Positions 3,403 to 62,881 of a DNA stretch of 64,000 nt are shown piece after piece. Within the stretch, counting starts at the first letter, position 1, and every line of letters begins with the position of its first letter. A program made the translations under genes and the position numbers. This DNA comes from Candidatus Dojkabacteria bacterium (lineage in GTDB: Bacteria; Patescibacteriota; Dojkabacteria; SC72), in NCBI GenBank assembly GCA_050950165.1, contig JBMNHC010000001.1, positions 453,744-517,743 on the forward strand. Reading direction: 5' to 3'. Below the pieces are notes generated by a model. It was given only the letters and a program-made list of their open reading frames with translations, was not told where the DNA came from and searched no databases.

Positions 3403-4473
3403 GTGACTTGTTTTTTTATGTCTATTTTTAACTCAATTTGGGAACTGTTTACATATGATTTAGGTATAGATTTGGGGACAGCCAATACCATGGTTTACCT
3501 AAGAGGAGAAGGTATTGTTGTTTCTGAACCATCAGTTGTTGCTGTCGAGAAAAAGAGTAAGATGGTACTTGCTGTAGGTCAAGAAGCAAGAGAGATGATA
3601 GGGAGAACGCCAGCTAATATTGTTGCAGTAAGACCACTGAAGGATGGAGTAGTTTCTGATTTTGATACTACACAGGCCATGATATATCATTTCATACGTA
3701 GTGCGCATAAAAACTACATTAAAGGTTTTAAGATTCCAAGACCAAGAGTTGTTGTAGGTGTCCCTTCTTCTGTATCAGAGGTAGAGAGACAAGCTGTAAT
3801 AGATGCAGCAAAAACTGCGGGAGCAAGAGACGTCTTCATTGTGGAAGAATCTATGGCAGCTGCAATTGGGGTAGGATTACCGATAGAGGATGCTTCAGGT
3901 AGTATGATAGTGGATATTGGAGGTGGTACTACTGGAATAGCGATTCTTTCATTAGGAGATATTGTTGTAGATAATACAGTTAGGATAGCTGGTGATGAGA
4001 TAACGCAGGATATCATTAACTATGTTAGAGATAAGTATAATATTTTGATAGGTGATAGGACTGCAGAAGATATTAAGATAGAGATAGGTTCTGCTTCTCC
4101 TCTTAAAGATGAGAAAGAGGTTGAATTACAAGGTAGAGATCTTTTAACTGGTCTTCCTAAGTCTATCAACTTTAGTAGTATTGAAGCTCGTGAAGCAATT
4201 ATGGTCTCACTAGGACAGATAACTGAGGCAGTAAAAGATGCAATAGAGGATACACCTCCAGAACTTCTTAAAGATATTTTTAATGATGGTGTGTATGTAG
4301 CAGGAGGTGGTGCACTCATTAAAGGATTAGATAAATATTGGGAGGAGGAGCTTAATATTCCAATTAAGATAGTTGATGATCCTCTCTCTGCAGTTGCTAG
4401 GGGAACTGCATCTATGTTAGATCATATAGATTTACTTCAGAAGGTACAGAAATCTTGGGAAGAACTTATTTAA
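3403..4473 (+). CDS. mreB: rod shape-determining actin homolog MreB
   Basis: DLGIDLGTANT phosphate-1 motif, VVSEPSVVA, DIGGGTTGIAILS phosphate-2, VAGGGALIKGLD. Start may be the internal Met at 3418. Confidence 0.9.
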   Translation: MTCFFMSIFNSIWELFTYDLGIDLGTANTMVYLRGEGIVVSEPSVVAVEKKSKMVLAVGQEAREMIGRTPANIVAVRPLKDGVVSDFDTTQAMIYHFIRSAHKNYIKGFKIPRPRVVVGVPSSVSEVERQAVIDAAKTAGARDVFIVEESMAAAIGVGLPIEDASGSMIVDIGGGTTGIAILSLGDIVVDNTVRIAGDEITQDIINYVRDKYNILIGDRTAEDIKIEIGSASPLKDEKEVELQGRDLLTGLPKSINFSSIEAREAIMVSLGQITEAVKDAIEDTPPELLKDIFNDGVYVAGGGALIKGLDKYWEEELNIPIKIVDDPLSAVARGTASMLDHIDLLQKVQKSWEELI

Positions 4474-10778: not shown

Positions 10779-11948
10779 GTGTTAAAAGGAAAAAGTATGG
10801 AAAAAGAAAAGAAAGTCTCTAAAAAGGATACTACTCCTAAGGCAAAGACTAAAAAGAAAGACCTTAAAGTAGAAATTCCAGAACTATTAACATTCCTCCA
10901 AGCAGGAGCTCACTTTGGGCATAAAAAGAGCGCATGGAATCCAAAAATGAACAAGTTTATCTACGAAACTAGAAACGGTGTTCATATTATCGATCTTGTT
11001 AAATCAAGAAAACTTCTAACAACAGCCTTGGAGATTTTAAATGAAGAAGTAGACAAAGGTAATATCTTAATCATTGGAACTAAAGGACAAGCTGCTGGAT
11101 TAGTAGAGAAGATGTCTAAAGAATCGGGAACATTCTACATTACCAAGAGATGGCCAGGAGGGCTCTTTACTAACTTTGATTGTATTAAAAAGAGTATTCA
11201 ATCTCTAGTTAGAATGGAAGAAGAGTTAGCATCAGGTGGTCAAGATTTGGTTAAGAAAGAGATTCTTCAGATGCAAAATGATGTAGCAAGATTAAATAGT
11301 GTGTATGAAGGTCTAAAGTTTATGGATGAACTACCTAGGATTTTGATAGTGATAGATAGTAAGGTAGAGAAGAACGCTATTAAAGAAGCTCGTATAGTGG
11401 GAGTACCAATTGTAGCATTAATAGATACAAACTGTGATCCAGATTTAATAGATTATCCAATTCCAGCAAATGATGACTCTATTAAAAGTATCTCCCTCTT
11501 TATATCTCTTTTTGGTGAAATCATTAAATCAGGTAAAAAGTCAGAATCATTAAGAGCATTAAGAAAAAATCATGAAGCAAATCTTGCAAACCTTAGAGCA
11601 AAGTACTTGGAAGAGAAAGAGAGAGAAGAGAAGATGGAAGAGGAAGAGAGACTAAGAATGAAAGCCATGAGAGAAGGAAAGACATATGTACAAACTTCAG
11701 GTGTAGTAAGAGTTGTTAAGAAAGAGAAGAATATGGAAGAAGAGTATGCAGCTGCAGAGGCAGTTAAGGCGGAGATTAGTTCTAAAAAAATCGAAGAGTT
11801 AGGACTCTCTGCTAGAGTAGAGAAAGCATTAGTGGAAGGTGGTATTAGTAAAGTAGAAGATTTGCTTGGTAAAGATAAAGAAGAGCTGCTAAGTATTAAA
11901 GGTATCGGTCCTAAGGCTGCAGAAGAGATATTAAAAGCTATTAAATAA
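10779..11948 (+). CDS. rpsB: ribosomal protein S2 with Lys-rich N-terminal and ~130-aa C-terminal extensions
   Basis: AGAHFGHKKSAWNPKM and ALIDTNCDPDLIDYPIPANDDS S2 core motifs. The C-terminal tail is E/K-rich and ends in an HhH-like GIGPKAAEEILKAIK. Confidence 0.9.
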   Translation: MLKGKSMEKEKKVSKKDTTPKAKTKKKDLKVEIPELLTFLQAGAHFGHKKSAWNPKMNKFIYETRNGVHIIDLVKSRKLLTTALEILNEEVDKGNILIIGTKGQAAGLVEKMSKESGTFYITKRWPGGLFTNFDCIKKSIQSLVRMEEELASGGQDLVKKEILQMQNDVARLNSVYEGLKFMDELPRILIVIDSKVEKNAIKEARIVGVPIVALIDTNCDPDLIDYPIPANDDSIKSISLFISLFGEIIKSGKKSESLRALRKNHEANLANLRAKYLEEKEREEKMEEEERLRMKAMREGKTYVQTSGVVRVVKKEKNMEEEYAAAEAVKAEISSKKIEELGLSARVEKALVEGGISKVEDLLGKDKEELLSIKGIGPKAAEEILKAIK

Positions 11949-14020: not shown

Positions 14021-15163
14021 ATGACCATATTAGTAAACATACTTCTTCTTCTTTTAGTAATTAGTCTTCTTACCTTCATACATGAGTTAGGTCATTTCTT
14101 AGCTGCTAAGATAGTAGGTGCTAAGGTCTTTGACTTCTCTGTGGGTTTCGGTCCTAAAATATTCTCAAAGAGAATAGGGGATACTACATACAACTTAAGA
14201 GTTTTACCATTCGGTGGTTTTGTAAAGATATTAGGAGATGGAGATCCTACTGAAAAGAAAGAGGATTTAAAGGATAAAGGTAATCTTAAAAACAAGAGTA
14301 AGCTATCTCAGATATTTGTAATGCTTGCAGGAGTATCTATGAATATGCTCTTGGCAGTAGTTTTGTATACCGTCTTTCTCTCTTCTTCTGCTTGGAGACT
14401 AAATATTACTAGTGAGTACAAAGATTTTGATGCTACAGGAGCAGATGTCAAAATAGAGAGAGTTTCAGATCTACCATATGAACTACTAAAAGAGGGAGGT
14501 GCTGTAGAGTCAGGTATGTATGAAAAAGGATATATCAAGAGTGTTAATGGAGAGAGTATAGATGGGTTTGTAGAGTTTAAAGAGTATCTTTCTAACTTTA
14601 AAGAGAAGGTTGTTGATTTAGAGGTGTGTAGTGAAGATTTAGCAAGATGTGAGATATTCCCTACATCTGTAGATAAAGATGGTAGGGTAGGTATGTATAT
14701 TGGAGAGAATTATTCTGTGTTTATAGATTATTCAAACAACAAGATATTTTCTGGTTTTGCACATAGTGTAAATGTACTTAGGTTAACAGGTAAGGTATTA
14801 GGTACTCTTCTTTCACAAGCAAGGCAGAGTGGTGACTATTCTACTCTTTCAAATACAGTTAGTGGTCCTGTGGGTATATATTTTGTAGTAGACTATTTTA
14901 AAACGTTAGGTATATTTGTATTTTTAGGAATAATTGCAGATCTTTCTCTTTCATTAGCAATAATTAATCTTTTCCCTATACCTGCATTAGATGGGGGTAG
15001 GGCTATGATATTGTTAATAGAGAGTATTGTTAGGAGGGATTTAAATGAGAAGGTAGAGAGTATAATTATTAATATTAGTTTTGTTTTCTTAATTCTTCTA
15101 ATTATCGCTATTATGTTTAAAGATATTTTTAATATAAAAGAATTGCAGAGTTGGTTTAGATAG
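14021..15163 (+). CDS. rseP: RseP-like M50 site-2 protease with PDZ-like insert
   Basis: HELGHFLAAK (HExxH) in TM1, FPIPALDGG (LDG motif), and a central soluble insert. Confidence 0.8.
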   Translation: MTILVNILLLLLVISLLTFIHELGHFLAAKIVGAKVFDFSVGFGPKIFSKRIGDTTYNLRVLPFGGFVKILGDGDPTEKKEDLKDKGNLKNKSKLSQIFVMLAGVSMNMLLAVVLYTVFLSSSAWRLNITSEYKDFDATGADVKIERVSDLPYELLKEGGAVESGMYEKGYIKSVNGESIDGFVEFKEYLSNFKEKVVDLEVCSEDLARCEIFPTSVDKDGRVGMYIGENYSVFIDYSNNKIFSGFAHSVNVLRLTGKVLGTLLSQARQSGDYSTLSNTVSGPVGIYFVVDYFKTLGIFVFLGIIADLSLSLAIINLFPIPALDGGRAMILLIESIVRRDLNEKVESIIINISFVFLILLIIAIMFKDIFNIKELQSWFR

Positions 15164-15333
15164 TATATCTTTTAAGTAAGAATATTTATTTACTGCTCTA
15201 ATGGCTATAAGATTAAATAAAACAACAAAGATAATACTTGCAATAGTAATATTAATTCTTTCTGTTGCTCTAGGTTATTTAATATGGAGAATTAATCAAC
15301 CAGAGAGATTAGATCCTACAGATAGTGATGCGG
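15143..15333 (+). repeat. 5' conserved unit of the tandem surface-protein cassette (copy 1). It overlaps the last 7 codons of rseP, the leader, and the signal-anchor coding region.
   Basis: 191 nt with a single mismatch to 17002..17192. Confidence 0.85.
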
Positions 15334-16985
15334 CATATCCTACTTGTCCAGGGGGGTGTAATTGGAATGTTGGGTTACAGGAGTGTATTGGAGGAAGGGG
15401 ATGTGTAAGTGTTTCAAGCACTGGATGTCCTAGTGGATTGGTTCTTAAGGGACATGTGTGTTGTGAAGAATGTACATCAAATGAACCTCCTGGTGAATGT
15501 GTGTACTACCCTGAAAGAAAAGTTCCTAATTGTCCAAATTGTGCTAAGGGATACTATAGTTGTTCTAAAGGGGTTTGTCAGCCCTGCCAACCTGATGCGG
15601 AGGGGCTAACTCTTGATGTTTGTAGATCCAGAGCCGATAGTAGGAATGGTGTGACAGTACCAGAATTGTGTAAAAAATCTCTTTCCTATTGGGGTTGTAG
15701 TCAGAGAAAAGATAATCCAGAACTATACGATTTAATTCAGATTCCTTGTAAAGATGAACCCCCTTCTGAACCAGACTGTGGAGAAGATTTGGAACCTAAG
15801 TCATTTGCGTTTAATAAGGCTAATACTGATGCTAGTAAGATAGGACCGTTTCCTGAAGATGGTAAAGTAGTATTCTTTTTTAAGAGTTTGTTGCCTGATG
15901 TAGCAGGAGGTGGTCCATATAGACCTAAAATATCATTTAAGGTAGTAAGTACTGATAGTACGAGGAATGGACAAACATATGTATACACACCCTCTGCTGA
16001 TGAAGAGAGGAAGGAGACAATCTTCGCTATTAAAGAAGGAGAGTATTTACTCTTAACAGACTCGGATGACAACAATAATCAGGGAAGTCCTGAGTGCGCT
16101 CCTACTGAGAATAATCCTAAATACAAATCTTTTGGATGGATAGCACCTAGTGGTGGTTTGTGTGGTTCAGGTCTGTTAGGTCCTCCTACTGAGGGTAATA
16201 GAGTGCCATATGACAAACCAAGTATTGCTGCGTTTAGAAGCAAGTCTGTGAGTCAAGGGTATAAAGAACTTCCTAAGGGAGAGCAGTGTTGGGCAGACTG
16301 GAGAGAGTGGCCTGGAGACTACGACTTTAATGATTACTTCTTAATGGTCTCATATGTTACAGAACCTAAATCTCTTCTAACTGCAGATATATCTGTAGAA
16401 AAAAGTGCAATTGAGTCATGTATAAATGAAGAAACAGAAAATCCAGAAGCAGAGTTAGCATATTCAATAACCATTACAAACAAAGGAGGAGTAGCAGGTA
16501 CTGTATCGAAAGTGGTGGATACATTAGATAGTAAGGTTGTAGCAGGGTCTGTATCTTCAATATCTGATTCAGGTTCTTACTCTGAAGGAAAAATTACTTG
16601 GAACTTTACTCCTGCTTTGAGTCTTGATGCCAATGGGGGTAAAAAGGTATTAACGTACAAAGTAAAAGTTGCAAAAGAAAATTTTGGTGAATACAAAAAT
16701 GTTGTGGTAGTGACAACCTCTACGGGAGAAGTGACTGCAGAGTACAGTATTGTTGCAGATTGTATAATTACAACACCAGATACACCAGATAAACCTGGAG
16801 AGAAAGTACCTCAAACAGGTCTCTTTGATCTAGTTCTTTCTAGAATAGCTGCAGGTGTAATATTAGTAATATTCGGTGTCTTTGTATACAACATACCTAA
16901 TACAGTATTTACTTTTCATTATCGTAAGAAGAAAATATCATATAAATATAGAGAAAAGTTTGAAAAGAGAATGACAGGTAATTAG
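15201..16985 (+). CDS. Cys-rich cell-surface protein, paralog A (signal-anchor, Cys-rich ectodomain, DUF11-like repeat domain, VPQTG sortase-like C-terminal sorting signal)
   Basis: N-terminal MAIRLNKTTKIILAIVILILSVALGYLIW. 40+ Cys in the first ~350 aa. AELAYSITITNKGGVAGTVSKVVDTLDSKV resembles the DUF11/conserved-repeat domain. C-terminus KVPQTGLFD, hydrophobic helix, then basic tail HYRKKK. Confidence 0.7.
   Translation: MAIRLNKTTKIILAIVILILSVALGYLIWRINQPERLDPTDSDAAYPTCPGGCNWNVGLQECIGGRGCVSVSSTGCPSGLVLKGHVCCEECTSNEPPGECVYYPERKVPNCPNCAKGYYSCSKGVCQPCQPDAEGLTLDVCRSRADSRNGVTVPELCKKSLSYWGCSQRKDNPELYDLIQIPCKDEPPSEPDCGEDLEPKSFAFNKANTDASKIGPFPEDGKVVFFFKSLLPDVAGGGPYRPKISFKVVSTDSTRNGQTYVYTPSADEERKETIFAIKEGEYLLLTDSDDNNNQGSPECAPTENNPKYKSFGWIAPSGGLCGSGLLGPPTEGNRVPYDKPSIAAFRSKSVSQGYKELPKGEQCWADWREWPGDYDFNDYFLMVSYVTEPKSLLTADISVEKSAIESCINEETENPEAELAYSITITNKGGVAGTVSKVVDTLDSKVVAGSVSSISDSGSYSEGKITWNFTPALSLDANGGKKVLTYKVKVAKENFGEYKNVVVVTTSTGEVTAEYSIVADCIITTPDTPDKPGEKVPQTGLFDLVLSRIAAGVILVIFGVFVYNIPNTVFTFHYRKKKISYKYREKFEKRMTGN
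16748..16904 (+). repeat. 3' conserved unit of the tandem surface-protein cassette (copy 1). Encodes IVADCIITTPDTPDKPGEKVPQTGLFD...VILVIFGVFVYNIPNT.
   Basis: 157 nt with 2 mismatches to 18448..18604. Confidence 0.85.
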
Positions 16986-17001
16986 GGTTTTAGATATTAA
17001 G

Positions 17002-17192
17002 TTGCAGAGTTAGTTTAGATAGTATATCTTTTAAGTAAGAATATTTATTTACTGCTCTAATGGCTATAAGATTAAATAAAACAACAAAGATAATACTTGC
17101 GATAGTAATATTAATTCTTTCTGTTGCTCTAGGTTATTTAATATGGAGAATTAATCAACCAGAGAGATTAGATCCTACAGATAGTGATGCGG
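17002..17192 (+). repeat. 5' conserved unit of the tandem surface-protein cassette (copy 2)
   Basis: Near-identical to 15143..15333, including the TTGCAGAGTT boundary. Confidence 0.85.
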
Positions 17193-18673
17193 GAGGTGGT
17201 TTTTCTAATGAACGGTGCAGAAAGAACAGCTGTAGTTGTAAAGATAAAAACGGGAATAGTATAACCTGTGAAAAGTATAATGAGGGGAATCCTGAGAATA
17301 AATGTTATCACCACATATGTAAAGATAGTAATGGCAATACTCTAGGAGGGGTTTTCTCGACAAACTCTGATTCAGATTCCGCGTGTCGCGATTGTGGATT
17401 TGATACAAAACCAAAAGAGGAAGGAGGAGAGTGTAATTTTGGGTCAGAATGTGCTGCTTGTCCTTGGCCAAAGGTAGCAAACTGTTCTAATCACAAATGT
17501 GGATGTATCCTTCCAGATCAAATACCTGCAGATCAATTACAATGTGGTTCTATAACACCATGTAATCCTCCAGCATGTCCTCAAGGAATGGTAGATTGTG
17601 GTACTTCTGCAGATAGTGAGGATAAAACAGGTTGTTCTGCTCAGGGATCGTGTATTGCTGAGTGTACAATATGTAAGAATAAATCTATAATATTTAGACA
17701 TTGTAAAGCTGCACCTACAAATGTTTGTGATGGAGGTAGTTGGATAGATAAACCTAGTGGTAATATTGACTATGGTAAGAGTATAACCTTTAGTGCTAAA
17801 GCTAAAGATTCAGATGGTATTAAGAGAGACAGTATTGTAGTTAAAAAAGGAACAGAAACATTATCCGAATGTAGTGGTGTAGAGAGTGTAAATTGTATTA
17901 AGTTAACAGAAGCAGCTACAGAGACAACTATTAGTGGAACATTAAGTACCCCTTCTAAGCAGTTAGCACCAGGTAACTATACTATCTCTATGAGCTGGAA
18001 AGACAAGAAAGATGTTGGTGGAGAAGCATGTGCATTAACTACATCTTTTGTAGTACTTGAAAAGCAAACTAATCCTGATTGGGAGATCTCTAAGTCTGTG
18101 GTAGAGCAATGTATTGATGATAGTACAGAAGATCCCAAAGCAGAGTTAACGTATACCATTGCTATTAAAAATACAGGAGATGGAGCGGGTCAGATATCCA
18201 AGATAGAGGATGTATTGGATGATAAGGTTCAAAGTAGCTTTGTTCAATCATCTTCTATTACCCCTCCAGGTAAATATGAGGGTGGAAAGATTATCTGGGA
18301 TTACATATCTTCCCCTCTCTCACTAGCAGCTGGAGAAAGTAAGGTATATACGTATAAGATACTTTTGGATAAAGAAAATTTTGAAACATATAGTAACACT
18401 GCAACATTGACTCCTGTAGGTTCTCCTTCTCTTTCTTCTTCTGCAAATATTGTTGCAGATTGTATAATTACAACACCAGATACACCAGATAAACCTGGAG
18501 AGAAAGTACCTCAAACAGGTCTCTTTGATTCAGTTCTTTCTAGAATAGCTGCAGGTGTAATATTAGTAATATTCGGTGTCTTTGTATACAACATACCTAA
18601 TACAATGTTTGCTAGTAAAGAACCATCCTACAAGTATAGAGATAGATTTGAAAGAAAAGTAGCAAACAGGTAA
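17060..18673 (+). CDS. Cys-rich cell-surface protein, paralog B (same architecture, different ectodomain)
   Basis: The first 44 aa and last ~52 aa are identical to paralog A. The middle has a different Cys pattern (CRKNSCSCKDKNGNSITC...). DUF11-like AELTYTIAIKNTGDGAGQISKIEDVLDDKV. C-terminus KVPQTGLFD + TM + basic tail. Confidence 0.7.
   Translation: MAIRLNKTTKIILAIVILILSVALGYLIWRINQPERLDPTDSDAGGGFSNERCRKNSCSCKDKNGNSITCEKYNEGNPENKCYHHICKDSNGNTLGGVFSTNSDSDSACRDCGFDTKPKEEGGECNFGSECAACPWPKVANCSNHKCGCILPDQIPADQLQCGSITPCNPPACPQGMVDCGTSADSEDKTGCSAQGSCIAECTICKNKSIIFRHCKAAPTNVCDGGSWIDKPSGNIDYGKSITFSAKAKDSDGIKRDSIVVKKGTETLSECSGVESVNCIKLTEAATETTISGTLSTPSKQLAPGNYTISMSWKDKKDVGGEACALTTSFVVLEKQTNPDWEISKSVVEQCIDDSTEDPKAELTYTIAIKNTGDGAGQISKIEDVLDDKVQSSFVQSSSITPPGKYEGGKIIWDYISSPLSLAAGESKVYTYKILLDKENFETYSNTATLTPVGSPSLSSSANIVADCIITTPDTPDKPGEKVPQTGLFDSVLSRIAAGVILVIFGVFVYNIPNTMFASKEPSYKYRDRFERKVANR
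18448..18604 (+). repeat. 3' conserved unit of the tandem surface-protein cassette (copy 2)
   Basis: Matches 16748..16904. Confidence 0.85.
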
Positions 18674-18721
18674 AATTGTATGATATAATCCAAACGCTTT
18701 AATTTGAAGGAGGTAAACCCC

Positions 18722-18922
18722 ATGGCAGTAATAGTTCATGCCAATGAAAATATAGATAGTGCTCTTAAAAGACTTCACAGAGAAGTAATGAGAGAGAAGA
18801 TTTTAGAAACATACAGAGAGAAAGCTTACAGAAGTAAGAAAGCTGACTTAGCTATCCAAAAGAGAAGAGAGTGGGCTAAAATGAAAAGAAGAAGAAGAAC
18901 TGCTGCAAGAAGGGCTAGGTAA
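18722..18922 (+). CDS. rpsU: ribosomal protein S21
   Basis: MAVIVHANENIDSALKRLHREV...RRRTAARRAR. A GGAGGT Shine-Dalgarno sits 8 nt upstream of the ATG at 18722. Confidence 0.85.
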   Translation: MAVIVHANENIDSALKRLHREVMREKILETYREKAYRSKKADLAIQKRREWAKMKRRRRTAARRAR

Positions 18923-35386: not shown

Positions 35387-36790
35387 ATGAAGATACATTT
35401 TAAAATCCCTTCCTATGTTCAAAAAGTAGGAAGGATATTAACAAAAGAGGGATATGATGTATATCTTGTTGGTGGAGCATTAAGAGATATTGTGATGGGT
35501 AAGACTCCTCATGACTATGATTTAGCAACTAATGCTCTTCCAGATGAGATGTTGGAGATATTTCCTAAGTCTGTTTCTACTGGAGCTAAGTTCGGTACAA
35601 TCTTAGTTCTTGTTAATGATGAGAGTGGAGAGAGTCAACAAGTAGAAGTCACTACATTTAGAAGTGAGTCTGACTATATAGATGGTAGGTGGCCAAGTAA
35701 GGTTGAGTTTGTAAATGATATTGATTTGGATTTAGGTAGGAGAGATTTCACTATCAATGCAATGGCTTTAGATTTAAGTACAAATTTAGAAGATGAGTCT
35801 GCAAGTGAGTGGAATATCCATGATCCTTTTGGTGGTATAACGGATATTAATTTAAAGTTAGTTAGAGCAGTAGGTACTCCGATAGAGAGGTTTAAAGAGG
35901 ATGGTTTAAGAACTTTTAAGGCTTGTAGATTGGCTTCTCAACTGGAATTTGAGATTGAAAAAGAAACATTTGATGCAATTAAAGAGGCTCTTCCTGTTGC
36001 TAAACAGGTCTCTATGGAGAGAATACGAGATGAATTTATGAAATTACTTCTTAATTCACCTAAGCCCTCTGTAGGGATAGAGTTGATGAGAGAGAGTGGG
36101 CTACTTAGTATCTTCTTACCAGAGTTAGTAGAAGGGTATGGAGTAGAGCAGAAGCTGTATCATGTACACGATGTATATTGGCATAGCTTAAATACTTGTG
36201 ATAAGGCAGAGGATAGTGTGAAGTTAGCTGCTCTTCTTCATGATATTGCAAAGCCTAGAACAGATATGGGTAATGGTCATTTCTATGGTCACGATACAGT
36301 GGGTGCAGAGATGGTAGAGGATATAATGAAGAGAATGAGGTTTCCTAAATCAGAGATAGAGAGAGTAAAGTCTTTAGTTAGAAACCATATGTTCTACTAT
36401 CCTCACCTAGATGAGAGAAGAGGTAAAGATATTCCTCTTACACAGTGGAGTGATTCAGCAGTTAGAAGATTTTTAAAGAGAGTGGGTCAGGAGAATGTAG
36501 AAGATCTCTTTAAATTAAGGATTGCAGATGCTTCATCTAATCCTAGTACTCTTTTTAAGCCCGAAGAGATTGAAGAGCTACAGAAGCATATTTCAAAGGT
36601 AAGACAAGAGGATATGGCATTAAAGATTACAGATTTAGATATTAATGGAGAGGATTTAAAGAGAATAGGTATTAAACCTGGTAAGAGAATGGGTGAGATA
36701 TTAAATATATTACTAGATATGGTAATAGAGGATCCATTGCTTAATACAAAAGAGAAGCTATTAGAACTAGCTAAGGGTATACCTAAGTAA
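35387..36790 (+). CDS. cca: CCA-adding tRNA nucleotidyltransferase (pol-beta head + HD domain)
   Basis: GGALRDIVMGKTPHDYDLAT nucleotidyltransferase head; RDFTINAMA; HD domain HSLNTCDK...LLHDIAKP. Start taken at MKIHFK to avoid overlap with the upstream gene. Confidence 0.8.
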   Translation: MKIHFKIPSYVQKVGRILTKEGYDVYLVGGALRDIVMGKTPHDYDLATNALPDEMLEIFPKSVSTGAKFGTILVLVNDESGESQQVEVTTFRSESDYIDGRWPSKVEFVNDIDLDLGRRDFTINAMALDLSTNLEDESASEWNIHDPFGGITDINLKLVRAVGTPIERFKEDGLRTFKACRLASQLEFEIEKETFDAIKEALPVAKQVSMERIRDEFMKLLLNSPKPSVGIELMRESGLLSIFLPELVEGYGVEQKLYHVHDVYWHSLNTCDKAEDSVKLAALLHDIAKPRTDMGNGHFYGHDTVGAEMVEDIMKRMRFPKSEIERVKSLVRNHMFYYPHLDERRGKDIPLTQWSDSAVRRFLKRVGQENVEDLFKLRIADASSNPSTLFKPEEIEELQKHISKVRQEDMALKITDLDINGEDLKRIGIKPGKRMGEILNILLDMVIEDPLLNTKEKLLELAKGIPK

Positions 36791-36794
36791 TCGA

Positions 36795-36845
36795 CAGAAC
36801 ACCCCATAGTTATGTATGTTTAAGGTTCCCCTTTATTCTTTTTAA
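36795..36845 (+). repeat. short intergenic repeat, copy 1 (CAGAACACCCCATAGT ... ATGTATGTTTAAGGTTCCCCTTTAtTCTTTTT)
   Basis: Shares two blocks (16 nt and ~33 nt) with 62725..62830. Sits 4 nt after the cca stop codon. Confidence 0.7.
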
Positions 36846-36924
36846 AGTATCTATTACCCTAGACCAGAGCATCTCCTTGTTGTATTATTTATATATACTA
36901 ATTTAAACTGCTTACTGCTCAACA

Positions 36925-45165: not shown

Positions 45166-45186
45166 AATATTGTATTGAGTTTGTAA

Positions 45187-45214
45187 AGAGGCTAGAGATA
45201 GCCTCTTTTTTTTC
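45187..45214 (+). terminator. rho-independent terminator after rpsR
   Basis: AGAGGCTA-GAGA-TAGCCTCT hairpin (8-bp stem) followed by TTTTTTTT. Confidence 0.7.
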
Positions 45215-53657: not shown

Positions 53658-53879
53658 ATGAAATATCCAAAGAGAATACAAAACAGGGTGAGTAGGATAG
53701 AGGGACAGATAGGTGGGATTAAAAGGATGATTAATACGGAGGTCTCTGAAGAGAAAGTAATGATTCAGCTACAAGCTGTAATATCTTCGTTGGAGAGTTT
53801 AAAGTTAGAACTACTTAAGAAGCAGATGAAGGATAGTTTTATAGAAAATATTAAAAAATCCTTATCTGTATCTGAGTAG
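53658..53879 (+). CDS. CsoR/RcnR/FrmR-family metal-sensing transcriptional repressor (DUF156)
   Basis: RVSRIEGQIGGIKRMIN ... QLQAVISSLESLKLELL matches the RIEGQ.RGI.RM...D..C.....Q..A...AL pattern, but this protein lacks the usual sensing Cys. Confidence 0.55.
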   Translation: MKYPKRIQNRVSRIEGQIGGIKRMINTEVSEEKVMIQLQAVISSLESLKLELLKKQMKDSFIENIKKSLSVSE

Positions 53880-53934
53880 TAATCTGATATACTTAGGTGT
53901 GTACTGTCCAATAATATGAATATATACTTAAGAG

Positions 53935-62714: not shown

Positions 62715-62724
62715 TATAGAATTG

Positions 62725-62830
62725 CAGAACACCCCATAGTATGATATAATGCCATATATTCAATATCTTAGTATGTTCAATAGGGGAACTTTTTACATAT
62801 GTATGTTTAAGGTTCCCCTTTAGTCTTTTA
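62725..62830 (+). repeat. short intergenic repeat, copy 2 (longer form, with an internal AGGGGAAC...GTTCCCCT hairpin and a TATAAT-like box)
   Basis: Shares CAGAACACCCCATAGT and ATGTATGTTTAAGGTTCCCCTTTA blocks with 36795..36845. An extra ~65-nt insert contains GATATAAT and the first hairpin arm (62782..62789), pairing with 62812..62819. Confidence 0.7.
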
Positions 62831-62881
62831 AGATATATATCCTTTGTGATAGAATAGTGTGTTAATATTGTATTTCTGTAT

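What the first reader, a model, noticed from the sequence alone, without database searches (positions are those of the whole stretch)
62725..62830. Small repeated intergenic element placed right after stop codons at two loci; the longer copy carries a hairpin and a TATAAT box
CAGAACACCCCATAGT and ATGTATGTTTAAGGTTCCCCTTTA(t/g)TCTTTT occur at 36795-36845 (4 nt after the cca stop) and at 62725-62830 (10 nt after the ATPase stop). In the second copy, a ~65-nt insert separates the two blocks. It supplies GATATAAT and an AGGGGAAC arm (62782-62789) that pairs with GTTCCCCT (62812-62819) across a 22-nt loop, followed by a T-rich run. The first copy has only the 3' arm plus the T-tract. This could be a terminator/attenuator module, a small RNA gene, or the remnant of a miniature mobile element or insertion site (direct-repeat-like blocks flanking an insert). 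In a genome this compact, a repeated non-coding element is unexpected.
Basis: seen in the sequence. Interest (0 to 1): 0.5.

Follow-up and report, generated by a model that had tools for sequence, protein, structure and literature searches.

The report
Repeated promoter–hairpin insertion in Dojkabacteria
About 100 bases of non-coding DNA sit right at the ends of two genes in one species of a tiny-genome (CPR) bacterium; the full copy has a strong promoter followed by a terminator hairpin and the other copy has lost both, so this is a real but small, species-private repeat and not a conserved system.

Summary
Block A (16 nt) and block B (25 nt) occur exactly twice. They abut at 36795-36835 and are split by 57 nt at 62725-62822. 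Chance is excluded.

The genome is a Candidatus Dojkabacteria (CPR) MAG. Relatives with the same gene order have spacers of 32-34 nt (cca–MBL RNase) and 66-67 nt (ATPase–yebC), against 134 and 167 nt here. Both copies are therefore lineage-specific insertions of about 100 nt. The first lies inside the last two codons of cca and supplies a new stop codon.

The long copy is a compact cassette:
- a -35-like TTGCAG, then 17 nt, then TGATATAAT, this genome's consensus extended -10 (4 of 4 occurrences are intergenic);
- a 38-nt hairpin (-18 to -21 kcal/mol) inside a 74-nt palindrome;
- a U-rich tail.

This hairpin is one of only two terminator-like structures after 60 gene ends. The short copy lacks the -10 box and the left arm and does not fold.

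I found no further copy in 78 kb, in GTDB genomes, JGI metagenomes, viral contigs, phages or plasmids. I also found no TIR, TSD, transposase or Rfam match.

The best reading is a low-copy duplicated intergenic element whose intact copy terminates transcription and may produce a ~72-nt RNA. Interest is modest.

The parts
36781..36878 (+). Insertion 1 (98 nt, ±1 nt), lying inside the last two codons of cca. It supplies the new C-terminal codons (A)CCT AAG and the stop TAA (36788-36790). The old GTTGTAaTAT (Leu codon plus stop) survives as non-coding DNA at 36879.
   Evidence: Alignment with three relatives whose cca–MBL spacer is 32-34 nt.
36791..36796 (+). TCGACA, a -35-like hexamer at the 5' edge of copy 1. 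It has no matching consensus -10 box in this copy.
   Evidence: plus comparison with copy 2 and L008.
36795..36810 (+). Block A, copy 1.
   Evidence: Exact match.
36811..36835 (+). Block B, copy 1. It corresponds to the right half of the hairpin (loop plus 3' arm) and is unpaired here.
   Evidence: Exact match. The fold is not better than shuffles.
36836..36854 (+). T-rich tail of copy 1 (TTCTTTTTAAAGTATCTAT), partly similar to the tail of copy 2.
62715..62840 (+). Copy 2, the full-length element. It accounts for the ~100 nt of extra spacer after the ATPase stop codon. The 3' limit lies between 62823 and 62840.
   Evidence: The relatives' ATPase–yebC spacer is 66-67 nt against 167 nt here.
62722..62727 (+). 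TTGCAG, a -35-like hexamer 17 nt upstream of TATAAT. This region is a hot spot of strain differences.
   Evidence: Read from the sequence. L008 carries 5 differences within 11 nt here.
62725..62740 (+). Block A, copy 2. It forms the promoter spacer.
62741..62797 (+). The 57-nt piece that copy 1 lacks. It holds the -10 box, the start of the predicted transcript and the 5' arm of the hairpin.
62742..62750 (+). TGATATAAT, an extended -10 promoter box.
   Evidence: The same 9-mer occurs 4 times in the window. All four are on the + strand and intergenic. Two of the others lie 12 nt before tRNA-Ser and 28 nt before ychF.
62757..62829 (+). Predicted ~72-nt transcript, from the inferred start to the end of the U-rich tract. 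This is an inference only.
   Evidence: Geometry of the promoter and the hairpin.
62782..62819 (+). Core hairpin: 11 bp, a 2x2 internal loop, 4 bp and a 4-nt apical loop.
   Evidence: -21.1 kcal/mol, z = -5.0. -18.0 kcal/mol for 62783-62818. Inverted repeat I1.
62763..62836 (+). Extended imperfect palindrome, formed by an outer stem (62763-71 / 62828-36) around the core hairpin.
   Evidence: -26.9 kcal/mol, the strongest fold of any spacer; I4. The only weak Rfam matches are miRNA-precursor models, which score long hairpins; all are far below their gathering scores.
62819..62829 (+). U-rich tail TTTAGTCTTTT following the stem.
62798..62822 (+). Block B, copy 2 (loop, 3' arm and the first T residues).
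62847..62855 (+). TGATAGAAT, yebC's own extended -10 box, 27 nt before the ATG. It is not part of the element. It corresponds to TGGTAAAAT in the relatives.

Best explanation
This is a lineage-specific, low-copy intergenic insertion element of about 110-125 nt. It was copied into two very short spacers of a Candidatus Dojkabacteria genome, each time right at a stop codon.

The intact copy (62715-62840) is a compact promoter → hairpin → U-tract cassette. Its hairpin most likely acts as a Rho-independent terminator. That would insulate the yebC-ruvCAB genes, which keep their own promoter, from read-through out of the upstream ATPase gene. Its consensus promoter probably fires into the same hairpin and would give a ~72-nt hairpin RNA as a by-product.

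The second copy (36781-36878) lacks the 57 nt that carry the -10 box and the left arm. It is an inactive remnant that does not block cca→MBL RNase read-through.

Shown: common origin, insertion status, the sequence signals, and absence elsewhere. Inferred: termination, transcription, and the way the sequence was copied (transposition versus ectopic copying).
For: - Common origin: 16 + 25 nt are identical and colinear, and shuffles give 0 matches for block B.
- Insertion status: three relatives (83-88% identical MBL protein) have a 32-34-nt cca–MBL spacer. The ancestral ...ATG TTG TAA TAT... can still be recognised on both sides of a 98-nt insert. Two relative lineages (72-73% identical YebC) have a 66-67-nt ATPase–yebC spacer. 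All other spacers in both neighbourhoods match the relatives in length.
- Terminator: the hairpin is -18 to -21 kcal/mol with z = -5 and is followed by TTTAGTCTTTT. It is one of only two terminator-like structures in non-coding DNA after 60 gene ends; the other is a textbook terminator after rpsR.
- Promoter: all 4 occurrences of TGATATAAT are intergenic and on the + strand, although 94.5% of the window is coding. Two of the others sit just upstream of tRNA-Ser and ychF.
- Copy 1 does not fold. In the relatives cca and the MBL gene are 34 nt apart, consistent with co-transcription.
- Both loci are reproduced by independent assemblies.
Against: - Only two copies were seen in 78 kb, and the rest of the 725-kb genome could not be searched.
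- No TIR, TSD or transposase was found, so mobility is unproven.
- The relatives manage without a terminator at this position.
- The U-tract is interrupted (UUUAGUCUUUU) and the stem has an internal loop.
- There are no expression data.
- The strain comparison (0.9% divergence) is too shallow to show selection on the hairpin: there is 1 change, in the loop.
Confidence: 0.5

Rival explanations
1. Copy 2 is a genuine small-RNA gene. It would have its own σ70 promoter and a ~72-nt hairpin RNA ending at an intrinsic terminator, and the RNA (trans- or cis-acting) would be the selected product. Copy 1 would be a dead paralogue.
For: A rare consensus promoter and a rare terminator lie 31 nt apart in the right order and orientation. 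If only intergenic DNA is considered, the chance of a TGATATAAT within 60 nt upstream of a given hairpin is roughly 7% (my estimate). The promoter serves no obvious purpose if the hairpin exists only to stop ATPase transcripts.
Against: The sequence is absent from all relatives and from all collections searched. There is no Rfam match, no covariation data and no identified target. The second copy is decayed. A stand-alone RNA gene would still need a mobile-element-like event to land inside the last codons of cca.
Confidence: 0.2
2. This is a one-off ectopic duplication with no function. A stretch of the ATPase–yebC spacer, possibly starting at the ATPase stop codon, would have been copied once into the end of cca by illegitimate recombination or template switching, with 7-nt and 57-nt losses plus filler DNA. 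The promoter- and terminator-like features would be incidental.
For: Only two copies were found, with no TIR or TSD. There is possible homology through the stop codon: AGTAAT|CGAC in copy 1 against AGTAAT[ATAGAAT]CGAC in L008. The shared tail overlaps what looks like ancestral spacer (TCTTTT...) at locus 2. The last 25 nt of insertion 1 match nothing.
Against: This does not explain where the ~100 extra nt at locus 2 came from. A perfect consensus extended -10 box together with the strongest intergenic hairpin of the window is unlikely to be incidental. The clustered strain differences in block A suggest exchange with another copy.
Confidence: 0.2
3. Blocks A and B are a shared cis-regulatory site (an operator or leader/attenuator) that co-regulates the two downstream genes, the MBL-fold RNase and yebC.
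For: Both copies lie upstream of a co-directional gene. YebC is a DNA-binding regulator.
Against: 41 identical nt is far more than an operator needs and points to recent copying. Relatives lack it entirely. The distances to the start codons differ (89 against 59 nt from the end of block B). yebC keeps its ancestral promoter downstream of the hairpin.
Confidence: 0.05
4. The two copies are attL/attR-type direct repeats bounding a 26-kb integrated island.
For: They are direct repeats in the same orientation, 25.9 kb apart.
Against: Relatives that lack the repeats keep MBL and yebC in the same orientation and 26.8 kb apart on two contigs (coordinates). The interval holds housekeeping genes (rpsF-ssb-rpsR, dnaB, prfA, ychF and others) and no integrase.
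Confidence: 0.01

Closest known systems
Correia elements (CREE) of Neisseria (compared from my own knowledge, not tested here)
   Same: They are intergenic elements of about 100-155 nt, often next to gene ends. They form long hairpins in RNA, carry promoter and terminator-like signals, and exist in long forms and internally deleted forms about 50 nt shorter.
   Different: Correia elements have 26-bp terminal inverted repeats, a TA target duplication and hundreds of copies. Here no TIR or TSD was found and there are two copies in 78 kb.
REP/BIME elements and their RAYT transposases (compared from my own knowledge)
   Same: They are imperfect palindromes placed just after stop codons in transcribed spacers, and they can stabilise or terminate transcripts.
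   Different: REPs are 20-40 nt, carry a conserved GTAG-type 5' tetranucleotide, are highly repeated and co-occur with a RAYT gene. None of these features was seen here.
Rickettsia palindromic elements (RPE) (compared from my own knowledge)
   Same: They are small palindromic repeats that persist in a reduced genome and can insert within reading frames. Copy 1 here sits inside the last two codons of cca.
   Different: RPEs are usually in-frame insertions that get translated, and they form families of dozens of copies. Here the element brings its own stop codon and is otherwise non-coding.
Canonical Rho-independent terminator
   Same: A G+C-rich stem followed by a T-rich run, in the sense orientation after a stop codon.
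   Different: The stem-loop is long (38 nt with an internal loop), the T-run is interrupted, a consensus promoter lies immediately upstream, and it is a recent insertion that orthologous spacers lack.

Membership tests
MITE (miniature inverted-repeat transposable element) | Terminal inverted repeats at both ends | tested here: not met
   The inverted repeats found are internal (the hairpin arms and the outer stem). None joins the two ends of either insertion (ends defined).
MITE (miniature inverted-repeat transposable element) | Target-site duplication flanking the insert | tested here: not met
   At locus 1, comparison of the empty and filled sites shows only a 1-nt ambiguity (T) and no duplication. 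At locus 2 no repeat flanks the insert.
MITE (miniature inverted-repeat transposable element) | Many dispersed copies and a related autonomous IS | tested here: inconclusive
   There are 2 copies in 78 kb and no transposase among the genes of the window. The remaining ~650 kb of the genome could not be read.
REP/BIME | A short (20-40 nt) palindrome with a conserved 5' GTAG-like tetranucleotide, high copy number and a RAYT gene | tested here: not met
   The hairpin is 38 nt but lacks the motif, is present intact only once, and no Y1-transposase gene lies in the window. A genome-wide RAYT search was not possible.
Rho-independent terminator | A stable G+C-rich stem-loop immediately followed by a U-tract, downstream of and in sense to a gene | tested here: met
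   62783-62818 folds at -18.0 kcal/mol with tail TTTAGTCTTT, 68 nt after the ATPase stop. The caveats are the interrupted U-tract and the absence of any functional test.
σ70 extended -10 promoter | TGnTATAAT with a -35-like box at 17±1 nt | tested here: met
   TGATATAAT lies at 62742-62750 and TTGCAG lies 17 nt upstream of TATAAT. The identical 9-mer precedes tRNA-Ser, ychF and rpsU. Activity was not tested.
Any Rfam RNA family | Covariance-model score at or above the gathering threshold | tested here: not met
   Only tRNAs pass in the window. The E-value searches of both loci give only noise hits (miRNA-precursor and rli24 models), 15-20 bits against thresholds of 75-100.
Prophage/island att sites | The DNA between the repeats is absent from relatives that lack the repeats | tested here: not met
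   Relatives keep the same spacing (26.8 kb) and orientation.
Integron attC site | R''/R' core sites RYYYAAC ... GTTRRRY at the base of the palindrome | tested here: not met
   The arms read GGGGAAC / GTTCCCC, so the purine/pyrimidine pattern is wrong. No integrase lies adjacent.
Diversity-generating retroelement VR/TR pair | Repeats that differ at adenines, with VR inside a gene's 3' end and a reverse transcriptase nearby | tested here: not met
   The shared blocks are identical and lie after the stop codons. The upstream coding ends are not similar. No RT lies in the window.

The most novel reading that the evidence does not exclude
The element could be an active, minimal mobile cassette in a CPR bacterium. 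It would be a self-contained promoter → hairpin-RNA → terminator unit that brings its own stop codon, inserts at the 3' ends of genes without TIRs or target duplications, and exchanges sequence between copies. The clustered differences in block A between strains would be a trace of that exchange. This would be a new kind of non-autonomous element, or a mobile sRNA gene, in ultra-small genomes.
Probability: 0.1. Interest if true: 0.55.

Novelty: new member of a known kind. Interest (0 to 1): 0.28.

Why it matters
The significance is modest. It shows that a ~0.7-Mb, 94%-coding CPR genome with a median spacer of 21 nt still acquires and keeps repeated non-coding insertions. It also shows that such an insertion can deliver ready-made transcription signals: the genome's consensus extended -10 promoter and one of its very few intrinsic terminators.

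On the practical side, it gives a working definition of promoter (TGATATAAT) and terminator signals for Dojkabacteria, a presence/absence marker for strain typing, and a concrete ~72-nt candidate RNA to look for in metatranscriptomes. Full-text searches of the open literature found no paper on MITE-like or REP-like repeats in CPR/Patescibacteria or on Dojkabacteria small RNAs.

Tried and rejected
- **Chance similarity.** Rejected.
- **Further copies.**
  - blastn-short of both spacers and of the 57-nt piece against the window, L007, L034 and the relatives' loci found none. The 18-nt hit at 3440 lies inside the mreB start and is chance.
  - The exact 18-mer GTTTAAGGTTCCCCTTTA gave 6 hits in GTDB genomes and 3 in JGI metagenomes. 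All are unrelated taxa with no flank similarity.
  - In viral contigs block B and the left arm gave 0 hits. Block A gave 13 hits, about what chance predicts, with unrelated flanks.
  - Phage and plasmid BLAST found nothing.
- **Spurious-ORF trick.** A protein search with the open antisense frame of the element, meant to catch other copies called as genes, found no candidate.
- **Rfam.** Nothing.
- **att-site / island idea.** Rejected by synteny.
- **Small-protein or type I toxin idea.** A 24-codon ORF lies at 62749-62823 (MPYIQYLSMFNRGTFYICMFKVPL). It has no Shine-Dalgarno sequence, its ATG overlaps the -10 box, it has no transmembrane-length hydrophobic run, and the frame is not kept in copy 1. 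Rejected.
- **Homology beyond the blocks.** The tails beyond ~36854/62840 and the upstream coding ends are not significantly similar.
- **57-nt deletion by slippage between TATG repeats.** The predicted product is one T short of copy 1, so this is not supported.
- **Transposase, RAYT, RT or integrase in the window.** None. All 58 or so genes are housekeeping or unknown.
- **Walking further along the source genome.** Not possible with the look-up rules. Only -10 kb (L034) and +4.3 kb (L007) could be added.

Full report
**Observation.**
- Block A (CAGAACACCCCATAGT) lies at 36795-36810 and 62725-62740.
- Block B is 25 nt once a shared leading T is counted (TATGTATGTTTAAGGTTCCCCTTTA). It lies at 36811-36835 and 62798-62822.
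- In copy 1 the blocks abut. In copy 2 they are separated by 57 nt (62741-62797).
- A 24-nt piece of block B never recurs in 100 dinucleotide shuffles.
- blastn extends the block B match to 32 nt at 97%. Beyond ~36854/62840 and upstream of the blocks the similarity is no better than shuffles.
- No other copy exists in the window, in 10 kb upstream (L034) or in 4.3 kb downstream (L007).
- Logan assemblies of SRR31061296 reproduce both loci without a single difference, so the repeat is not an assembly artefact.

**Organism and context.** YebC and MBL-hydrolase homologues place the window in Candidatus Dojkabacteria (WS6, CPR). The MBL protein is identical to NCBI MGI6423449.1, on a 724,554-nt contig. 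The window is ~94.5% coding with a median spacer of 21 nt. Once small genes (rpsU, a CsoR-like ORF) and tRNAs are accounted for, the two element-bearing spacers (134 and 167 nt) are the longest truly non-coding spacers between co-directional protein genes.

**Both copies are insertions.** Gene order is conserved in relatives.
- Locus 1: three lineages with 83-88% identical MBL protein have a cca–MBL spacer of only 32-34 nt.
- The nucleotide alignment shows the ancestral ...GGT ATG TTG TAA TAT(T/C)TATATATA... split between GGTAT and GTTGTA by 98 nt (36781-36878).
- The CCA enzyme's C-terminus therefore changed from ...RML* to ...GIPK*. The element supplies the new stop codon, and the old Leu-stop sequence survives as non-coding DNA at 36879.
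- Locus 2: two lineages with 72-73% identical YebC have a 66-67-nt ATPase–yebC spacer. It contains only an extended -10 box (TGGTAAAAT) that corresponds to TGATAGAAT at 62847 in the window.
- All other spacers in both neighbourhoods have the same lengths as in the relatives. The ~100-nt expansions are therefore specific to the element.
- The 26 kb between the copies keeps the same length and orientation in relatives that lack the repeats (coordinates). It is filled with housekeeping genes, which rules out att sites of an island.

**Anatomy of the long copy.**
- *Promoter.* TGATATAAT (62742-62750) is a perfect extended -10 box, with TTGCAG 17 nt upstream of TATAAT. The same 9-mer occurs four times in the window, always on the + strand and always intergenic. 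The other three lie 12 nt before tRNA-Ser, 28 nt before ychF and ahead of rpsU. It is evidently this genome's consensus promoter.
- *Hairpin.* It starts thirty-one nt downstream of the -10 box and spans 62782-62819 (11 bp, internal loop, 4 bp, tetraloop). Its energy is -21.1 kcal/mol with z = -5.0. It is wrapped by an outer 8-9-bp stem (62763-71 / 62828-36). The 80-nt fold (-26.9 kcal/mol) is the strongest of any spacer. The tail is TTTAGTCTTTT.
- *Rarity.* In my own survey of 60 gene ends, only two hairpin-plus-T-tail structures lie in non-coding DNA: a textbook terminator after rpsR (45185-45208) and this one.
- *Short copy.* Copy 1 lacks exactly the -10 box, the transcript start and the left arm, and it does not fold better than shuffles.

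**What it is not.**
- It matches no Rfam family.
- It has no TIR or TSD.
- No transposase, RAYT, RT or integrase gene lies in the window.
- It has no attC core sites and no DGR signature.
- It has no credible small ORF.
- Exact-word scans of GTDB species genomes, JGI metagenomes and IMG/VR, and BLAST against phages and plasmids, found only chance hits.
- A protein-space search for spurious ORFs spanning other copies found nothing.
- Full-text literature searches found no paper on such repeats in CPR/Patescibacteria or on Dojkabacteria small RNAs.

**Strain comparison.** A 99.1%-identical strain (L008, ENA ERZ21942150) carries the full element at locus 2, with one change in the hairpin loop. 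It also has five differences within 11 nt in the -35-like box and the 5' part of block A.
- L008 shares TCGAC with window copy 1. Window copy 2 shares AGAACACCCC with copy 1.
- This mosaic suggests gene conversion among copies, perhaps with a third copy I could not see, or a local mutational hot spot. It remains unexplained.
- Copy 1 may also be homologous to locus 2 through the stop codon (AGTAAT|CGAC against AGTAAT[ATAGAAT]CGAC). That would hint that copy 1 was copied from locus 2, but six bases are too few to decide.

**Interpretation.** My best reading (confidence ~0.5) is a low-copy, lineage-private intergenic insertion element.
- Its intact copy works as an intrinsic terminator, or insulator, between the ATPase gene and the yebC-ruvCAB genes.
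- Its promoter probably also produces a ~72-nt hairpin RNA.
- The copy at the end of cca is an internally deleted remnant. Losing the hairpin there fits the need to keep transcribing the MBL RNase gene, which in relatives sits 34 nt behind cca with no promoter of its own. That last point is an inference.

The main rivals are a genuine sRNA gene (0.2) and a functionless one-off ectopic duplication (0.2). A shared operator (0.05), att sites and chance are unlikely or excluded.

The closest known kinds are Correia-type, REP-type and RPE-type small palindromic repeats. The element behaves like them but fails their defining tests (TIR/TSD, GTAG motif, copy number). I therefore file it only as a new member of the general kind 'small intergenic repeat carrying transcription signals'.

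**Verdict.** It is small in scale, private to one species, and of modest interest unless the whole genome shows it to be an active family or transcriptomics shows an abundant RNA.

Noticed in passing
window 10779-11948 (+): Ribosomal protein S2 (residues 40-251) appears fused to a C-terminal RNA-polymerase alpha CTD / helix-hairpin-helix domain (residues 330-389). The independent gene call on L034 has the same architecture.
   Followed up: no
window 15143-18673: Two tandem DUF11-domain paralogues (15201-16985 and 17060-18673) share near-identical DNA blocks inside otherwise diverged genes: 15143-15333 = 17002-17192 (99%) and 16748-16913 = 18448-18613 (97%). This suggests gene conversion.
   Followed up: partly
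L008 1632-1642 = window 62722-62733: Between two strains that differ by 0.9% overall, five differences fall within 11 nt. The cluster covers the -35-like box and the 5' part of block A. Possible causes are a gene-conversion tract from another copy or a mutational hot spot.
   Followed up: partly
window 45185-45213: A textbook intrinsic terminator (AAAGAGGCTAGAGATAGCCTCTTT + TTTTT) follows rpsR. Apart from the element it is the only terminator-like structure found after 60 gene ends, so such terminators seem rare in this genome.
   Followed up: partly
window 18681, 33203, 42680, 62742: TGATATAAT occurs four times, always intergenic and on the + strand. Looser TGnTAnAAT boxes sit 9-37 nt before many start codons. 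This gives a usable promoter consensus for this Dojkabacteria genome.
   Followed up: partly
window 18704-18922 and 53658-53879: Two apparently long spacers hold small genes: rpsU (S21, 72 aa) and a 73-aa CsoR/RcnR-like ORF. The strong hairpin at 53807-53886 lies inside and overlaps the end of the second one.
   Followed up: partly
L009 6817-7284; L012 6871-7491: Relatives carry an extra 155-206-aa ORF with no Pfam match between yebC and ruvC. The window genome lacks it; its yebC–ruvC spacer is 18 nt.
   Followed up: no
L021, L022, L024, L026, L028 (IMG/VR contigs): In one group of viral contigs, block A's sequence (AACACCCCATAGT) forms the 5' arm of a terminator hairpin (...ACTATTGGGTGTTTTT). 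The number of hits fits chance and the flanks are unrelated to the element.
   Followed up: yes
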